Source of the DNA: a virus
Direction: 5' to 3' (one strand)
DNA length: 64,000 nucleotides
Virus record (IMG/VR): IMGVR_UViG_3300045738_001212
Coordinates: 93,998-157,997 of that record
The stretch's first letter is position 1; each line of letters starts with the position of its first letter. Made by a program: the position numbers and the translations under genes. Below the pieces are notes generated by a model that did not search any database, was not told where the DNA came from, and was given only the letters and a program-made list of their open reading frames with translations. Positions 12,239 to 32,131 of the stretch are shown piece after piece.

Positions 12239-12703
12239 GTGACCGTATACGAAGCTTATTCAAAACTTTGGGAGTATTTCAAGGATACGGACTCTTTTGT
12301 CATGGAGGAAGACTTTCGCAAGGTCTCCCTCGTTTCAGATACCCCGACGAGAGACAGGGCGGCGTTTCAATCAGCCCTTGACGACTGGGCAAAGCAAGAC
12401 ATTCTAACTCGCCAAGTCCAACACGTCTGGAACAAGGAGATCAAAGACAACGAGACCAAAACAGTCTACGTCCTCAGAAAACCCCTCGACTCAAATGAGC
12501 AGTCAATCAGTGTTCACGCAAACCTCGCAACCTACATGATGAAGGAGATAAACAGTTTCTGCGAACTCATTGATGACAAAACTGACCTCTGCGACCCAAC
12601 GGATTTGCGTAGCAAAGACATTTTGAACTTGATCCATATCCTAAATTTCTACAAAAACAAATACCAAGAAGAGATAGGAATGGACAATGAAAAAGATGAT
12701 TGA
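12239..12703 (+). CDS. hypothetical protein
   Basis: 154 aa GTG-start ORF at the strand switch. Confidence 0.7.
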   Translation: MTVYEAYSKLWEYFKDTDSFVMEEDFRKVSLVSDTPTRDRAAFQSALDDWAKQDILTRQVQHVWNKEIKDNETKTVYVLRKPLDSNEQSISVHANLATYMMKEINSFCELIDDKTDLCDPTDLRSKDILNLIHILNFYKNKYQEEIGMDNEKDD

Positions 12704-12727
12704 CACCGAAACAGGTTCCGGTATGAT
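12700..12727 (+). promoter_or_regulatory. sigma70-like promoter
   Basis: TTGACA-16-TATGAT; -35 box contains the TGA stop of the upstream ORF. Confidence 0.7.
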
Positions 12728-13080
12728 GCTCAAGTCAAAAGGGAAGAGCCCCTTTCAGCCCACCGGGAGTAAACGGCAGGGTTTCCCAAGGTGAGTGAAT
12801 TTCACAGGACTTGAGCGTGGGTCCATATCCGAAGGGCAAACCGCTTTCAAAAAAAACTGACAGGTAGTCCCTGTCGCATAACCCCGGCGTGATGCGGGTA
12901 ATCACTGTAATGAGTTTTTAGCACAGTTTCTCACCCTGTAATAAGGGAGGTGATCCAAAGTACTTGGTTGTACGTGGGCTGGCTACCCACTTAAAAAACT
13001 TTAGCCCTCAAAAGGAAATCAATGTACCCTTACCCCCCAAAAGGGGGTATTGTACCTATTTGCTAAAAGGAAAGTGCAAC
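12728..13080 (+). ncRNA. candidate structured non-coding RNA of unknown family
   Basis: About 400 nt without a credible CDS; many hairpins and long-range complementarity (12756-63 with 12974-81; 12728-36 with 12808-16); own promoter. Confidence 0.5.
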
Positions 13081-13110
13081 ATACGATACGTAAGATACGT
13101 AAGATACGAT
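13081..13110 (+). repeat. short direct repeats (G)ATACG(TAA) directly before ATG 13111
   Basis: atacgatacgtaagatacgtaagatacgat. Confidence 0.75.
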
Positions 13111-13752
13111 ATGAGTAACATATACATTGGTCTCGCTGGCGTCGCCGGATCAGGCAAAGACCTTTTCTTTTCCATGCTCTCCGAAAGGATGCAGTGCCAA
13201 CGCTTTTCCCTCGCAGACGCCCTTAAGAAAGAAGTGTCCGAGTTCACCAAATGGTCCTACGGCATAGACCCACTCACTTGCTCCCGTAAGGACAAGAACC
13301 TAATTAGACCCTTCCTTGTCTTTCACGGCTCCATGAAAAGAAGCAGGACTAATGGTAGATATTGGATAGATCAAATGAATAATAAAATTTTAAAAAATAA
13401 AACAACCAGTAAGATCGTCATAATAACAGACGTTAGGTATGACGACTACCCTAGAGACGAGGCATATTGGTTGAAAAAGGAGCTTGGGGGCTACCTTGTT
13501 CACATTTCTTTGTACGATGACATCCCTAGATTAAGTTCATCTTACAAGAAATATAAACCCCCCGCGAACGAGGAAGAAAGAAGGAATGACCCCAAATTGA
13601 AAGCCCAAGCTGATTATTTAATCGATTGGGGAAGGGTCAAAGGAGTCGTTAAGCCGCAACTCATACCGTTTGTAGATGAGTTCATTGAGTGGCTCAATAG
13701 AAAAGAAGACGGACTCTCAGCTTACGAAAAAGCTGAAGAAGGACGGGTGTGA
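13111..13752 (+). CDS. deoxynucleoside monophosphate kinase-like P-loop protein
   Basis: Start at MSNIYIGLAGVAGSGKD (P-loop); FSLADALKKEV; IITDVRY. Confidence 0.85.
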   Translation: MSNIYIGLAGVAGSGKDLFFSMLSERMQCQRFSLADALKKEVSEFTKWSYGIDPLTCSRKDKNLIRPFLVFHGSMKRSRTNGRYWIDQMNNKILKNKTTSKIVIITDVRYDDYPRDEAYWLKKELGGYLVHISLYDDIPRLSSSYKKYKPPANEEERRNDPKLKAQADYLIDWGRVKGVVKPQLIPFVDEFIEWLNRKEDGLSAYEKAEEGRV

Positions 13753-27583: not shown

Positions 27584-28939
27584 GTGACCGAATGTATTCC
27601 ATTATTTAAGTCTCACTATTCGCTAGGGAGGTCTATCCTTACTTTGAATAGCCCCGGAGAACACGCTGATGAATCTCCGGTCTCAATTTTCGATATCCTT
27701 ATTGAGAATAAAATCGAAGAGCTCTTCCTCTTAGAAGATTCTTTCGGAGGCTTCCTGCAAGCGCACCAAAATTGTAAGGAGAATAATATCAAACTTAACT
27801 TCGGGTTAAGGTTTAATTTTCTATGTGACGTTAAAGAAAAAAATGAAGAAGCCCTTAAGTCTAGGTGCAAATATTCCATCTTCGCCAAGAATAACGAGGG
27901 CTACAAGCGGCTTGTAAAAATCTGGAGCCTCGCAGCGAAAGAGGGCTTTTATTATACACCTAATCTTGACTTTAAAGTCTTACGGGACTTTTGGAATGAC
28001 GACGACTTATTGATGTGCGTACCGTTCTACGACTCGTTCTTACACAGGAACACCCTAGAGGGTGCTGTCTGCATACCCGACTTTGAATACTGTAAGCCTG
28101 TACTTTTTTTAGAAGATAATGATGTTCCATTTGATTACCTTATAAGGGACAGGGTAGAAGCCTACGCTAAATCTTCCGGTCTCCTTACTCAAGAAGTGAA
28201 AAGCATTTTCTACAAAGGAAAGAAAGACTTCATGGCTTATCTTACGTTTAAATGCGTTAACAAAAGGTCCACGTTAGACAGGCCCAACATGGACCATATG
28301 TGCAGTGATGAATTTTGCTTCGAAAGCTGGGCGAAACAAAAGAAGCTAAAGGTTGCTGACGACAAACCCAAAAAAAAAGTCGCTGTTCCTAAGAAGGAGA
28401 AAGACAATGTGATAGTTCTGACAAAAGAACAACAGAAATACGCAAACCAAATCGGAGCTAAACGACAAAAATATAACGAATCTATAAACAAAAAAGATGC
28501 TTACGGCTTTAAAGGCAACGGAGAAAAAATTCACATACAAGGAGCAAGAGCAGAACTGTCCGTATCCCTAATTCTAAAGCAAGATTGGACAGATTTTAAG
28601 AAGAACTATACGTCCATAATGGCTGATGTTGGAAAGAATATTCAAGTTAGAAGCACTAATTACAGAGAGGGTAACCTTTTGGTCCACCCGAAAGACAAGG
28701 ATGATCAGGTTTTTGTTTTGGTGAAATCTCATAACTATCCAGAGATGGAAATTTCTGGTTGGATTCTGGGCAAGGACGCCAAAAGAAAAGAGTTTTGGGA
28801 GGATGGTACTAACTGGCCCAAGTTTAAGGGGCGAGCTTGCTATCGGTTCCCTTATGAAAGACTAAATCCGATTACAACTTTAGAATCACTGGGTGTAATT
28901 ACAAAGAAGGCTGAAGGAATCGGGGGTACCCATGCGTGA
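27584..28939 (+). CDS. DNA polymerase III alpha PHP domain, fused to a C-terminal nuclease-fold-like domain
   Basis: KSHYSLGRSIL, IKLNFG, FAKNNEGYKRL, GFYYTP (DnaE PHP); Lys-rich linker; then GARAE...DVG..IQVR. Confidence 0.75.
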   Translation: MTECIPLFKSHYSLGRSILTLNSPGEHADESPVSIFDILIENKIEELFLLEDSFGGFLQAHQNCKENNIKLNFGLRFNFLCDVKEKNEEALKSRCKYSIFAKNNEGYKRLVKIWSLAAKEGFYYTPNLDFKVLRDFWNDDDLLMCVPFYDSFLHRNTLEGAVCIPDFEYCKPVLFLEDNDVPFDYLIRDRVEAYAKSSGLLTQEVKSIFYKGKKDFMAYLTFKCVNKRSTLDRPNMDHMCSDEFCFESWAKQKKLKVADDKPKKKVAVPKKEKDNVIVLTKEQQKYANQIGAKRQKYNESINKKDAYGFKGNGEKIHIQGARAELSVSLILKQDWTDFKKNYTSIMADVGKNIQVRSTNYREGNLLVHPKDKDDQVFVLVKSHNYPEMEISGWILGKDAKRKEFWEDGTNWPKFKGRACYRFPYERLNPITTLESLGVITKKAEGIGGTHA

Positions 28940-29573
28940 GCACCTACTTAGATTCGACAAGTCTAAGACTTATGTATTCATAGATTGCGAGACGTTCAAC
29001 CTGTGTCTAAACAAGGTCTATAATCTTCCTTGGCAAATAGCGATGATCAAGGCTGTTGCTGGTAAAAAAATTGCCGAAAAGAACTTCTATATTAAATGGA
29101 AAACAGACCTGAAAATAGGAGACGAAGCCGCTAGGATTACCCGCTATAGCCAAAAAACGATGGACGAGAAGGGCATCTCTCCAGAAGAAGCTTTCCCCAC
29201 GATACGAGACTGGTTGGATAACTCTGATTGGATAATCGCTCATAACATGCTGGGGTTTGATCTTTACCTAATAAAGGACTATTACAGGCTGAATAACCTT
29301 GATTATAAGCACCTGATGCCCAAGATTCTTGACACCAACTCCCTCGCTAAGGGTGTTAAGCTTGACATCCCCTACAAGGAGGATGAGGGGTCTTTAATTG
29401 AGTACCAGTATAGGATGACCAATATGCGTAAAAAGGGCGTTAGAACGAACCTGATGGCCTTGGGGAGGGACTATGACATCGAACATGACAGCGACAAACT
29501 CCACGATGCTATAGTAGATTTGGAACTTAATCTGAAAGTCTGGAACAAGCTAAAATGGCAGATAGAAATATAA
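28932..29573 (+). CDS. DEDDh 3'-5' exonuclease (DnaQ-like)
   Basis: FIDCET, AHNMLGFD, LHDAIVD. Confidence 0.9.
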   Translation: MREHLLRFDKSKTYVFIDCETFNLCLNKVYNLPWQIAMIKAVAGKKIAEKNFYIKWKTDLKIGDEAARITRYSQKTMDEKGISPEEAFPTIRDWLDNSDWIIAHNMLGFDLYLIKDYYRLNNLDYKHLMPKILDTNSLAKGVKLDIPYKEDEGSLIEYQYRMTNMRKKGVRTNLMALGRDYDIEHDSDKLHDAIVDLELNLKVWNKLKWQIEI

Positions 29574-32131
29574 ATTTTAAGTCTCACTTTAAAGGCATTG
29601 ATCTACCTATTCATGGGGTTCGTTTACCTCGGTTCGAGATAGAGAAGAAGTTCAAAAGAGAGCTCGGGGTAAGTGAAGATATTAGTAACTATGACTTCTT
29701 ACGTTCATTAGCTAACGCTGGATTTAAAAATTTAAAAATAAATAAAAAAAGTAAGAAATACAAACTCTATGCCGAAAGAGCGAAGCACGAAATAGACACC
29801 CTAGAAGACTTGGGATTTGTTGACTATGTGCTTTTAGTTTGGGACGTAATTAACTACTGCAAGCGTAGTGATATACCGACAGGTCTCGGGCGGGGCAGTG
29901 CTGCTGGAAGCCTTATCCTTTATTTAATTGGAGTGACCAAGGTTGACCCAATTGAGTACGGCCTTTATTTCGAGAGATTTATTTCAAAAATTAGAGCGAA
30001 GAAGCAGGTCGTTGACGGCATCACTTATCTTGATGGTTCGCTAATGTGTGATGTCGATTTAGACATTTGTTATTACAATCGTGGTAAGGTTATCGATTAC
30101 CTTGAAGAAAAGTTTAAAGGGAGGACTTCTAAAATTATAACCTTCAACACCCTTAGTGGGAAGCTGTGCATGAAGGAATGCGGGAAGATTGTAGGGGGGA
30201 AGACCGAACAAGAAATGAGCCTTGTGTCTTCAATGATACCTAAAGTCTTTGGTAAGGTGAAAGACATAGAAGAAGCGAACGAAGAAGTTCCCGAGTTTAA
30301 AGAGTGGTGCGACAAAAACAGGCGGGCCTACAAGATAGCCTTGAACCTTAGAGGCTTAATCAAAAACAAAGGAGTTCACCCATCGGCCCTTTCCTTATCG
30401 TATGAAGACATGGAGGACAGTTGTCCCACAGAATTTTCATCAGACAAAGCTTCCATCTCGTCTTTCGACATGAACTGGACCTCGATTTCCAATGTTAAGC
30501 TAGACTTGCTGGGACTAAGGTCCGTATCGGTAATCGATGACGTTTGCAAAAGTGTTAAAATTAAAATAGAAGACATTAATCCTAACAGCAAATTTATATA
30601 CAGGCACCTTCAAGATTTAAGAACGCCTCATGGCTTATTTCAAATTGAAGCCGATACAAACTATGGGGTTTGTAGGAAGGTGATGCCCAAGAATCTTGAA
30701 GAACTAAGCGCGGTACTAGCCCTTGCTCGTCCCGGAGCATTAGCTTTCGTTAACCAATACGCAAACTACTCAAACAACGGGGTGAAAGAATCCATACACC
30801 CATTCTTTGATGACATTTTGGCGTCAACTGGTGGTGTTTGTTTATATCAAGAGCAGATGATGCAAATGGCTCACAAGGTTGGGTTCACGCTTGACGAAGC
30901 TGAAATTCTACGTCGTATCGTGGGCAAAAAGAAAGTTACTGAGGTACGCAAGTGGAAGAAGAAAATTAAAAACAAAATCACAGAGAAGAAGCTCGATTCT
31001 GAGATCGGTAAAATCCTCTGGAAAATCCTTGAGGATTCAGCCAACTACTCTTTCAATAAGTCCCATTCTATTTCATACGCCGCGCTTGCCGCGACGACGA
31101 TTTATCTTAAGTTCAAATACCCTATGGAATTTTTCTTAAGCCTGTTGCGTATGACCAGACACGAACCAGACCCGATTAACGAAATTTCCAAAATCCAGAA
31201 AGAGATGCACAACTTTAATATAAAGTTACTGCCTCCTCATATCACAAAATCACGGATGGATTTTATGTCTGAAGGCGAAGATATTCGATTCGGACTACTC
31301 TCGATTAAGGGAATTTCAGATAAGTCTATAGAAAAACTAAACAGGTTTAAAAGAGACACCTCCACAAAGTTCGAGGTATTCGAGGCGGCAAACGAAGCCA
31401 ACCTAACGATTGGTATACTGTGTGCGCTTATTCAAGCGGGGGCTTTTCAGGGGTTTGTGCAATCCAGAACCAAGATAGCATACGAAGCTCAACTTTGGAA
31501 TGTCCTTACCCAAAAAGAAAAGAAGCTCTGCATAAGCCTATCTAAAGAACACAGGCACGATCTGGTTGCCGTTCTTAAAGACATCTTAGGCAAGAAAAAC
31601 GAAAAAGGGAAACCCCTTATTAAGCCTTCTCGTTTTGAGACTATCCAAAGAAAATCTCAACCTTACAAGGAAATTTTTAACAAGAACAGGTACTCTGAAA
31701 GCTTTGCGAATTGGTACTACGAAAATCATTTACTAGGATACACCTACGGAAAGACCCTCAAGGATATTTTCGCTAAAGAAAGACCCAACTTGCTTTCCCT
31801 TAGCTCAGTCAACGCCAGAACTAAGGGGGCAGAGGTAGAGTTTATTGCTCCCGTTGGGAGTAAGCCAGCCACGCGCATGTCTAGAAACGGCAACCGTTAT
31901 CTTGTCATGGAAGTCCAAGACGAAACAGATAGAACGAAGGTAATGATATTCGGTGACAGACTGGATGGGTGCGAAGAAACGAACGGAGGTCTTCCTCAAG
32001 AAAAGAACATTGTGATAGTCACGGGGCAGAAACAAGATGACAACACGGTCTTTGCCAACTCCATCACTATCCAGACAAATAAAATTTACACCCGCTATTC
32101 TGAAATAGAATCAGAAAGAAAACTTAAGTAG
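29555..32131 (+). CDS. dnaE: DNA polymerase III alpha catalytic core lacking PHP
   Basis: GRGSAAGS, FERF, DVDLD, KLDLLGL, YQEQ, YSFNKSHS, IRFGLLSIKGI, C-terminal OB fold. Confidence 0.93.
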   Translation: MADRNINFKSHFKGIDLPIHGVRLPRFEIEKKFKRELGVSEDISNYDFLRSLANAGFKNLKINKKSKKYKLYAERAKHEIDTLEDLGFVDYVLLVWDVINYCKRSDIPTGLGRGSAAGSLILYLIGVTKVDPIEYGLYFERFISKIRAKKQVVDGITYLDGSLMCDVDLDICYYNRGKVIDYLEEKFKGRTSKIITFNTLSGKLCMKECGKIVGGKTEQEMSLVSSMIPKVFGKVKDIEEANEEVPEFKEWCDKNRRAYKIALNLRGLIKNKGVHPSALSLSYEDMEDSCPTEFSSDKASISSFDMNWTSISNVKLDLLGLRSVSVIDDVCKSVKIKIEDINPNSKFIYRHLQDLRTPHGLFQIEADTNYGVCRKVMPKNLEELSAVLALARPGALAFVNQYANYSNNGVKESIHPFFDDILASTGGVCLYQEQMMQMAHKVGFTLDEAEILRRIVGKKKVTEVRKWKKKIKNKITEKKLDSEIGKILWKILEDSANYSFNKSHSISYAALAATTIYLKFKYPMEFFLSLLRMTRHEPDPINEISKIQKEMHNFNIKLLPPHITKSRMDFMSEGEDIRFGLLSIKGISDKSIEKLNRFKRDTSTKFEVFEAANEANLTIGILCALIQAGAFQGFVQSRTKIAYEAQLWNVLTQKEKKLCISLSKEHRHDLVAVLKDILGKKNEKGKPLIKPSRFETIQRKSQPYKEIFNKNRYSESFANWYYENHLLGYTYGKTLKDIFAKERPNLLSLSSVNARTKGAEVEFIAPVGSKPATRMSRNGNRYLVMEVQDETDRTKVMIFGDRLDGCEETNGGLPQEKNIVIVTGQKQDDNTVFANSITIQTNKIYTRYSEIESERKLK

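What the first reader, a model, noticed from the sequence alone, without database searches (positions are those of the whole stretch)
12700..13110. Candidate novel ~350-400 nt structured RNA with its own promoter
Seen: the longest stretch in the window without a credible CDS or tRNA. It starts at TTGACA-16-TATGAT and is packed with stems: AAAGGG/CCCTTT; GCTCAAGTC (12728-36) with GACTTGAGC (12808-16); long-range CAGCCCAC (12756-63) with GTGGGCTG (12974-81), competing with a local GTGGG/CCCAC hairpin; CAGGGT/ACCCTG; GACAGG/CCTGTC; GTGAT/ATCAC; TACCCCC/GGGGGTA. It lacks the hallmark sequences of tmRNA, RNase P and SRP RNA. Inference: a large phage ncRNA, or a switchable leader of the dNMP kinase-sigma factor operon. 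An origin or primer RNA is also possible because it lies near the strand switch.
Basis: partly seen in the sequence, partly recalled or inferred. Interest (0 to 1): 0.75.

Follow-up and report, generated by a model that had tools for sequence, protein, structure and literature searches.

The report
New structured RNA of marine phages
The gap holds a real gene for an intricately folded non-coding RNA of about 320 bases that is conserved in many uncultured ocean phages and matches no described RNA family; its function is still unknown.

Summary
Window 12704-13110 has no credible CDS. It starts at TTGACA-16-TATGAT and ends at a GC-rich hairpin with a U-rich tail.

It is a gene family. I found 146 loci (76 clusters at 96% identity) in IMG/VR and marine metagenomes. 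Each has the same promoter, a body of about 320 nt and the hairpin.

Covariation is strong:
- Central domain: 89.7% of cells paired against 31-51% when partners are slid, with 386 double-change cells.
- 3' domain: 85.7% against 40-51%.
- One pseudoknot is supported by counts. A second pseudoknot and a long-range 5' helix are supported mainly by inspection.

G-U pairs put the RNA on the + strand. Neither the window nor 10 homologues match any Rfam 15 family, and ARAGORN finds no tmRNA.

It is not a fixed leader of the kinase gene. The downstream gene varies and can be convergent, and at least 26 of 70 loci have a second promoter after the hairpin. The gene directly upstream is usually a winged-helix protein.

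Among 80 related loci, 35 carry this RNA and 30 carry a different structured RNA in the same slot. None carries both.

Unexplained: the last ~20-30 nt before the hairpin are repeated after it and co-vary with it. The function is inferred only. The scan had noted this same stretch once before, but on no other DNA.

The parts
12239..12703 (+). Upstream gene orf154, a winged-helix protein. Its stop codon overlaps the RNA promoter.
   Evidence: No Pfam or PHROG match. AF2 model has pLDDT 89.8. Residues 1-90 match many winged-helix domains at Z 7-8. It lies directly upstream of the RNA in most of 41 loci.
12700..12727 (+). Sigma-70-type promoter (-35 at 12700-12705, -10 at 12722-12727)
   Evidence: Scores 11 of 12. 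The TTGAC is kept across members. The full pattern is found in 50 of 74 clusters.
12734..13053 (+). RNA body, about 320 nt. The start is inferred from the -10 and the end from the hairpin tail.
   Evidence: nhmmer and CM hits cover the full length in 129 loci. G-U pairs fix the strand.
12738..12755 (+). H1, the 5' hairpin (12738-43 with 12750-55)
   Evidence: Compensatory variants are visible in alignment A2. No formal count was made.
12758..12782 (+). H2, a bulged hairpin with a conserved 8-nt loop (12766-73)
   Evidence: RNAalifold pairs 33-40 with 51-61 of A2, with double changes at 5 of 7 pairs.
12785..12836 (+). P-X, a long-range helix. In the window only 12785-87 pairs with 12834-36; relatives have 7 bp.
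   Evidence: Six different perfectly complementary 7-mers occur in relatives. The count is weak: 57.7% paired, covariation 0.198 against 0.130 in shuffles.
12791..12805 (+). H3 hairpin
   Evidence: Seen by inspection of A8 and A9.
12807..12846 (+). Pseudoknot 1. Stem A is 12807-10 with 12821-24. Its loop 12813-17 pairs with 12842-46 (stem B).
   Evidence: Nine different complementary stem-B pairs were read in A8 and A9. Partner-swap z is -4.9, which lies within the noise range seen.
12848..12857 (+). Conserved A-rich linker
   Evidence: Invariant A columns in A3.
12858..12876 (+). H6 hairpin with conserved 5-nt loop
   Evidence: 90.6% paired; 5 of 7 pairs have double changes.
12883..12898 (+). 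H7, a short CC/GG helix around a conserved loop
   Evidence: 100% paired but nearly invariant.
12901..12954 (+). H8, a long-range helix (12901-06 with 12949-54) that encloses H9 (12912-32) and H10 (12934-47)
   Evidence: H8 is 97.1% paired and all 7 pairs have double changes. H9 is 100% paired. H10 is 62% paired, with a register shift in one subgroup.
12955..12967 (+). H11 hairpin
   Evidence: All 4 pairs have double changes; 72% paired.
12970..13027 (+). P-Y, the helix that closes the 3' domain. The window has a short form, 12970-73 with 13024-27.
   Evidence: The inner part is 85.7% paired and the outer part 74.6%. Partner-swap z is -9.1. Both strands of the inner part are deleted together in the window, L004, L008, L009 and L104.
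12974..13006 (+). H12 hairpin (12974-78 with 12986-90) and pseudoknot 2 (loop 12981-84 with 13003-06)
   Evidence: H12 is 93.4% paired. PK2 is 83.9% paired, with covariation 0.209 against 0.097 in shuffles and at most 0.08 when slid.
13032..13053 (+). GC-rich 3' hairpin with U-rich tail, a terminator-like end
   Evidence: 96% paired. The tail has 4-6 T in 8 nt in 74 of 76 clusters. The window's own tail is too weak for the scan.
13010..13027 (+). Direct repeat, copy 1 (the A/G-rich segment plus the P-Y 3' strand)
   Evidence: Alignments. Similarity of own against swapped copies gives z = 18.
13065..13084 (+). Direct repeat, copy 2, after the hairpin
   Evidence: It is complementary to the P-Y 5' strand in a lineage-specific way, z -3.4 to -4.1.
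13085..13108 (+). Tandem 9-mer, 2.7 copies, specific to the window
   Evidence: It is absent from relatives.
13111..13752 (+). Downstream P-loop gene, like a deoxynucleoside monophosphate kinase
   Evidence: phrog_139 at 7e-16. Pfam matches fall below the cut-off.

Best explanation
Window 12700-13053 (+) is an independent gene for a non-coding RNA of about 320 nt. It belongs to a previously undescribed family found in a clade of uncultured marine phages that use a DnaE-type polymerase.

Shown:
- A conserved sigma-70-type promoter and a GC-rich 3' hairpin.
- A fold of three domains with about 14 helices.
- Pseudoknot 2 is supported by pair counts.
- Pseudoknot 1 and the long-range 5' helix P-X rest mainly on inspection.

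Inferred:
- Host RNA polymerase makes the RNA early in infection, and it accumulates as a discrete, compact RNA that acts in trans.

My preferred mechanism (about 35%) is that the RNA is the scaffold of a ribonucleoprotein formed with the winged-helix protein encoded directly upstream, acting in the early replication and nucleotide-metabolism module. The many invariant unpaired loops would be protein or tertiary contacts.

The confidence below is for the claim 'independent structured RNA gene of a new family', not for the mechanism.
For: Conservation and spread:
- The core is 75-85% identical in loci where the kinase is only 42-60% identical.
- 146 loci in 76 clusters. All 81 hits of a 24-nt pattern in marine metagenomes are members.

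Covariation:
- central domain; 3' domain; PK2; H2.

Strand:
- Frequent G-U pairs on the + strand, for example 33 U-G at one H8 pair.

Promoter and 3' end:
-.

Not coding:
-.

Not a known family:
- No Rfam match and no tmRNA.

Independent unit:
- The downstream gene differs or is convergent.
- A second promoter follows the hairpin in at least 26 of 70 loci.

Link to the winged-helix gene:
- It is the adjacent upstream gene in most loci.
- It is kept whether the slot holds this RNA or the alternative type B RNA.
- Its fold is given.
Against: - There are no transcript data, so the 5' and 3' ends are inferred.
- The window's own U-tract is weak.
- In the window and in L004 no separate promoter is evident before the kinase gene, so read-through may matter there.
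- In six rearranged loci the RNA is 1-3 kb from the winged-helix gene. Winged-helix domains usually bind DNA. The partnership is therefore only a guess.
- The direct repeat around the hairpin is not explained by this model.
Confidence: 0.88

Rival explanations
1. A cis-acting leader or attenuator, riboswitch-like or a processive antiterminator. The fold would decide whether transcription stops at the hairpin or runs on into the kinase-sigma genes.
For: - The hairpin is followed in the window and in L004 by the kinase gene with no clear promoter between.
- The post-hairpin repeat can replace copy 1 as partner of the P-Y 5' strand, which fits alternative folds in read-through RNA.
- The outer P-Y strand abuts the extended hairpin stem.
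Against: - In about nine clusters the next gene is convergent. In rearranged loci it is a different gene.
- At least 26 of 70 loci have a new promoter after the hairpin.
- Copy 2 is transcribed only after the termination decision.
- At 320 nt with three domains it is far larger than known antiterminator RNAs.
Confidence: 0.15
2. A replication-origin element. The transcript would prime or activate an origin, and the direct repeats would be binding sites for the winged-helix protein.
For: - The element lies at the main divergent strand switch, at a local minimum of cumulative GC skew.
- It sits within the replication and nucleotide-metabolism module: RNR, DnaB, DnaE-type polymerase.
- A winged-helix gene is next to it.
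- The two direct repeats co-vary.
Against: - GC skew here simply follows the coding strand.
- Covariation shows selection on RNA pairing, including pseudoknots, which a plain R-loop primer would not need.
- The repeat motif occurs nowhere else in the genome.
- No AT-rich unwinding element was identified.
Confidence: 0.1
3. A ribozyme, self-processing or acting in trans.
For: It has a compact multi-domain fold, pseudoknot 2 (and probably pseudoknot 1) and many invariant unpaired nucleotides. This degree of complexity is typical of large ribozymes.
Against: It matches no ribozyme family in Rfam. No conserved cleavage-site signature was recognised. Nothing bearing on chemistry was tested.
Confidence: 0.1
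4. Not an RNA gene: a regulatory DNA region or a missed small CDS.
For: Single-sequence fold z-scores are modest, and the - strand folds slightly better.
Against: - Hundreds of compensatory changes keep pairing on the + strand.
- G-U pairs would be A-C mismatches on the other strand.
- There is no open frame above chance and no 3-nt periodicity in indel lengths.
Confidence: 0.02

Closest known systems
ROOL and GOLLD RNAs (large ornate RNAs often carried by phages and prophages)
   Same: Large, elaborately folded, phage-borne, with many conserved helices, transcribed as stand-alone RNAs, and of unknown function.
   Different: No match to their Rfam models. This RNA is smaller (about 320 nt), is not next to tRNA genes, and has a different helix layout. 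Any self-assembly is untested.
ColE1 RNA II (structured replication primer)
   Same: A sigma-70-driven structured RNA of several hundred nt beside replication functions, with a G-run near its 3' part.
   Different: RNA II has no terminator before the origin and no pseudoknotted domains like these. No origin has been shown here.
put RNA of phage HK022 and EAR RNA (cis-acting antiterminator RNAs)
   Same: Sits just after an early promoter and before a terminator.
   Different: Those RNAs are 70-120 nt and always precede the operon they control. Here the downstream gene varies or is convergent.
phi29 pRNA (phage RNA that works as part of a protein machine)
   Same: A phage-encoded, early-transcribed structured RNA proposed to act with a phage protein.
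   Different: No sequence or structural likeness, a different genome position, and the protein partner is only inferred.
Bacterial RNase P RNA
   Same: Similar size class. At first sight some short motifs recall CR-I and CR-V.
   Different: Those motifs turn out to be arms of local helices. The 5' and 3' ends do not pair. There is no Rfam hit.

Membership tests
RNase P RNA (bacterial type A/B) | Scores against the family covariance models | tested here: not met
   No hit at E <= 10 for the window or for 10 homologous loci.
RNase P RNA (bacterial type A/B) | P1 helix joining the 5' and 3' ends, and a long-range P4 formed by CR-I and CR-V | tested here: not met
   The ends are a 5' hairpin and a 3' hairpin. 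The CR-I-like motif is the 3' arm of local stem A.
tmRNA | tRNA-like domain plus a tag reading frame | tested here: not met
   ARAGORN finds only six tRNAs elsewhere in the window. No Rfam hit.
ROOL / GOLLD / other described large RNAs in Rfam 15 | Match to the family covariance model | tested here: not met
   Searches show no family reaching E <= 10 in the RNA region.
Riboswitch or cis-regulatory leader | Fixed position upstream of, and on the same strand as, the regulated gene | tested here: not met
   The downstream gene is the kinase, another gene, or a convergent gene. A second promoter is present in at least 26 of 70 loci.
Riboswitch or cis-regulatory leader | Mutually exclusive terminator and antiterminator pairing | tested here: inconclusive
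   The post-hairpin repeat can pair with the P-Y 5' strand, but it lies after the hairpin. No antiterminator for the hairpin core was found.
Intrinsic-terminator-ended stand-alone sRNA gene | Own promoter, a GC hairpin with U-tract, and no CDS | tested here: met
   The window's own U-tract is weak (4 T in 8).
Replication-primer RNA (RNA II-like) | The RNA 3' end maps to an origin and is processed into a primer | not testable with these tools
   Only GC skew was available, and it follows the coding strand.

The most novel reading that the evidence does not exclude
A clade of ocean phages keeps a dedicated genome slot, just after a winged-helix gene, for a large catalytic or protein-organising RNA. 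Two RNA classes with no detectable sequence similarity (type A here, type B in sister phages) can fill that slot interchangeably. That would be a new RNA-based phage function, for example in starting replication or in takeover of the host. Both classes share an unusual feature: an internal segment is repeated beyond the 3' hairpin, which hints at a common switching or target-mimicry mechanism.
Probability: 0.3. Interest if true: 0.9.

Novelty: categorically new. Interest (0 to 1): 0.8.

Why it matters
Few large RNAs with complex folds are known, and each has revealed new biology. Examples are RNase P, group I and II introns, and more recently the cage-forming ROOL and GOLLD RNAs.

This one is abundant in ocean metagenomes. 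It is conserved more strongly than the proteins around it. It sits in the early replication module of a phage group with no cultured member.

A second, unrelated-looking structured RNA replaces it in sister phages. This argues that the RNA does something these phages cannot do without.

The family, its alignments and its models make that function directly testable.

Tried and rejected
1. RNase P resemblance, recalled from memory. Rejected: the motifs are arms of local helices and no model hits.
2. tmRNA, 6S, SRP, group I intron, T-box and hammerhead. No Rfam or ARAGORN support.
3. Not conserved.
4. Cultured relatives. No blastn or tblastn match in 50,697 phage records for the RNA or the kinase. 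The polymerase is at most 32% identical to anything there.
5. The post-hairpin block as a genome-wide promoter motif. A loose scan found it only here. It does not fit the spacing of a MotA box or an ECF sigma promoter (by eye).
6. Pairing partner for the A/G-rich part of the repeat. Window scans gave only z -3 to -4, while unrelated windows reach +4.9. This is noise. The same noise level means the partner-swap values for P-X, PK1 and PK2 are not decisive alone.
7. A covariance model of the 5' domain was not built. MAFFT seeds put stem B in four different registers.
8. One viral scan was wasted on a pattern with a wrong gap length.
10. The two literature searches and one preprint I checked described no such RNA. 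One further search call failed on a term format.

Full report
**What is in the window.**
The stretch 12704-13110 lies between ORF 12239-12703 (+) and a P-loop gene that starts at 13111. That gene resembles a deoxynucleoside monophosphate kinase. A sigma factor gene follows. Only short ORFs overlap the gap. A consensus scan finds TTGACA-16-TATGAT at 12700-12727, scoring 11 of 12. Rfam 15 gives no match, either at gathering thresholds over the whole window or at E <= 10 over 12500-13300. ARAGORN finds six tRNAs elsewhere and no tmRNA. Folding the single sequence is only modestly better than shuffles: z -2.0 on the + strand and -3.3 on the - strand. The window alone is therefore suggestive, not convincing.

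**Relatives.**
The window belongs to a 158-kb IMG/VR virus record. The RNA and the kinase have no match among 50,697 deposited phage records. The kinase has many metagenomic homologues, and an alignment of them recovered 80 viral loci.
- blastn of the gap against these loci found its core (window about 12849-12954) at 75-85% identity. In those same loci the kinase protein is only 42-60% identical. The core lies at varying distances from the kinase and sometimes on the other strand.
- Profile searches raised this to 33 of the 80 loci.
- A 15-nt motif scan of IMG/VR added 31 true members.
- A 24-nt pattern hit 81 marine metagenome contigs, all of them true members. It also hit one contig binned with a Pseudomonadales MAG.
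- In total there are 146 loci, of which 129 are full length, in 76 clusters at 96% identity.
- Ten homologous loci also gave no Rfam match.

**Gene anatomy.**
Almost every member starts with TTGAC. About 17 nt further on comes a TAnnnT-like hexamer. Then follows a body of about 320 nt, and then a C5/G5 hairpin with a U-rich tail. The full promoter pattern is found in 50 of 74 clusters. The tail has 4-6 T in 8 nt in 74 of 76 clusters. For the window this gives an RNA of about 12734-13053. The window's own tail has only 4 T, which is why the terminator scan missed it.

**Structure.**
A covariance model of the central domain (R1) aligned 78 sequences.
- 89.7% of cells pair, against 31-51% when partners are slid by 1-3 columns.
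- There are 386 double-change cells against 31-65 in the slid controls. The covariation score is 0.583 against 0.05-0.13, and 0 of 500 shuffles reach it (seed alignment).
- H6, H8 and H9 are very well supported. H10 shows a register shift in one subgroup.

A model of the 3' domain (R2) gave 85.7% paired against 40-51% slid, with covariation 0.353 against 0.07-0.13. This supports H11, the two-part closing helix P-Y, H12 and the 3' hairpin.
- The inner part of P-Y is missing on both strands together in the window, L004, L008, L009 and L104.
- Pseudoknot 2 joins the H12 loop to a segment downstream. Its first three pairs hold in nearly all sequences, with several independent double changes. Covariation is 0.209 against 0.097 in shuffles and at most 0.08 when slid.

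In the 5' domain the evidence is as follows.
- H2 is supported by RNAalifold.
- H1 and H3 are plain hairpins with visible compensatory variants.
- The long-range helix P-X appears as six different perfectly complementary 7-mers, but it scores weakly in the formal count. One reason is an internal loop in most members. The other is a one-column register shift.
- Stem B of pseudoknot 1 was read as nine different complementary pairs. It could not be counted formally, because MAFFT places it in several registers.
- A partner-swap test on duplex energies gave z -9.1 for P-Y, -5.3 for P-X, -4.9 for stem B and -3.8 for PK2. Scans of unrelated windows reach |z| of 4-5, so only P-Y is safe by that test alone.

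Frequent G-U pairs would be A-C mismatches on the other strand, so the RNA is on the + strand. Stop-free stretches match shuffles, and domain lengths show no multiple-of-3 bias, so it is not coding.

H1, H6, H12 and the 3' hairpin are real. The 12728-36/12808-16 pairing is specific to the window and partly precedes the start site. The long-range 12756-63/12974-81 pairing and the two pairings that use 12933-38 and 12901-05 are replaced by conserved alternatives.

**Context.**
The phage carries ribonucleotide reductase, a DnaB-like helicase and a DnaE-type polymerase that is at most 32% identical to anything cultured.
- The RNA lies beside the main divergent strand switch. Cumulative GC skew has a local minimum there, but skew in this genome simply follows the coding strand.
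- Across 41 loci, the gene directly upstream and on the same strand is usually the orf154 homologue. Six rearranged loci separate the two by 1-3 kb.
- orf154 has no Pfam or PHROG match. Its AF2 model (pLDDT 89.8) has an N-terminal winged-helix domain with Z 7-8 to many such proteins. That Z range is not decisive on its own, but the matches are uniform.
- The downstream gene varies. It can be the kinase, another gene, or a convergent gene ending 30-50 nt after the hairpin.
- A second sigma-70-like promoter follows the hairpin in at least 26 of 70 clusters.
- The RNA is therefore its own transcription unit, not a fixed leader of the kinase. In the window and L004 I see no clear second promoter, so read-through may feed the kinase gene there.

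**An unexplained feature.**
The last ~20-30 nt before the hairpin are repeated directly after it. In the window these are 13010-13027 and 13065-13084. This segment holds the 3' side of PK2, an A/G-rich run and the P-Y 3' strand.
- The two copies co-vary between lineages. Similarity of own against swapped copies gives z = 18.
- The second copy keeps lineage-specific complementarity to the P-Y 5' strand (z -3.4 to -4.1).
- The motif is not found elsewhere in the genome.
- Possible readings are an alternative fold in a longer isoform, two sites for one protein, or mimicry of a target. None was tested.

**A second RNA in the same slot.**
Of the 80 kinase loci, 35 carry this RNA (type A). Another 30 carry a different conserved non-coding element of 430-470 nt at the same place (type B). 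None carries both.
- Type B has no Rfam match and no detectable sequence similarity to type A.
- RNAalifold on 15 type B sequences predicts 61 pairs, 94% of them kept, and 40 with compensatory double changes.
- Type B also repeats an internal block near its 3' end, and those copies co-vary too.
- The winged-helix gene is present in 60 of the 80 loci, alongside either RNA type.
- This mutual exclusion is the best indirect evidence that a large structured RNA at this position is needed by these phages.

**How it most likely works.**
The following is shown: an independent, conserved, promoter-to-hairpin RNA gene with a complex fold. The following is inferred: early synthesis by host polymerase and action in trans.
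- I favour a ribonucleoprotein with the neighbouring winged-helix protein (about 35%).
- A cis-acting attenuator comes next (about 15%).
- An origin or primer element and a ribozyme follow (about 10% each).
- The remainder is unassigned.

**Novelty.**
No family in Rfam 15 matches. The two literature searches and one preprint I checked described no such RNA. The scan's own notes hold only a second reading of this same stretch. I therefore class it as a new RNA family of unknown function. The caveat is that a recent description outside Rfam and outside the papers searched cannot be excluded.

Noticed in passing
L013:2507-3005, L016:2506-3002, L029:2509-2977, L052:2555-3007, L031:2399-2867 and 25 more loci: A second, unrelated-looking structured RNA (type B, 430-470 nt) fills the same slot after the winged-helix gene in 30 of 80 related loci. 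It is mutually exclusive with the window's RNA. It has no Rfam match, and 40 of 61 predicted pairs show compensatory changes. It also repeats an internal ~20-nt block near its 3' end.
   Followed up: partly
L053:367-717, L062:307-764, L073:306-767, L072:454-710: A third conserved ORF-free stretch (350-460 nt, 80-90% identical) occurs in kinase loci that have neither RNA type nor a detected orf154 homologue. It may be another RNA, perhaps on the other strand.
   Followed up: no
window 13085-13108: A perfect tandem 9-mer (2.7 copies) sits between the post-hairpin repeat and the kinase start codon. It is absent from relatives. It pushes an AAGGA-like motif about 36 nt away from the ATG.
   Followed up: partly
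window 12239-12703: orf154 is an unannotated protein family with an N-terminal winged-helix domain and a helical C-terminal half. Its stop codon overlaps the -35 of the RNA promoter.
   Followed up: partly
window 27584-28939 and 29555-32131: The DNA polymerase is of the PolIII-alpha (DnaE) type, apparently in two ORFs, and is at most 32% identical to any cultured phage.
   Followed up: partly
L178 (contig CAZYHH010000001.1): One family member lies on a 44-kb contig binned into an uncultured Pseudomonadales MAG. It clusters with IMG/VR contigs. This is a weak lead to the host.
   Followed up: no
L208:4467-4550: A second, truncated copy of the type A 3' domain lies about 230 nt after the complete RNA, at the contig end.
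   Followed up: no
L069:1658-1905 and L081:2590-2708: Weak covariance-model hits (E 1e-4 to 3e-3) suggest more divergent members of the family.
   Followed up: no
window 12859-12875, minus strand: Read on the minus strand, H6 and its A-run look like an intrinsic terminator (hairpin plus T8). This may explain why the minus strand folds slightly better in single-sequence tests.
   Followed up: partly
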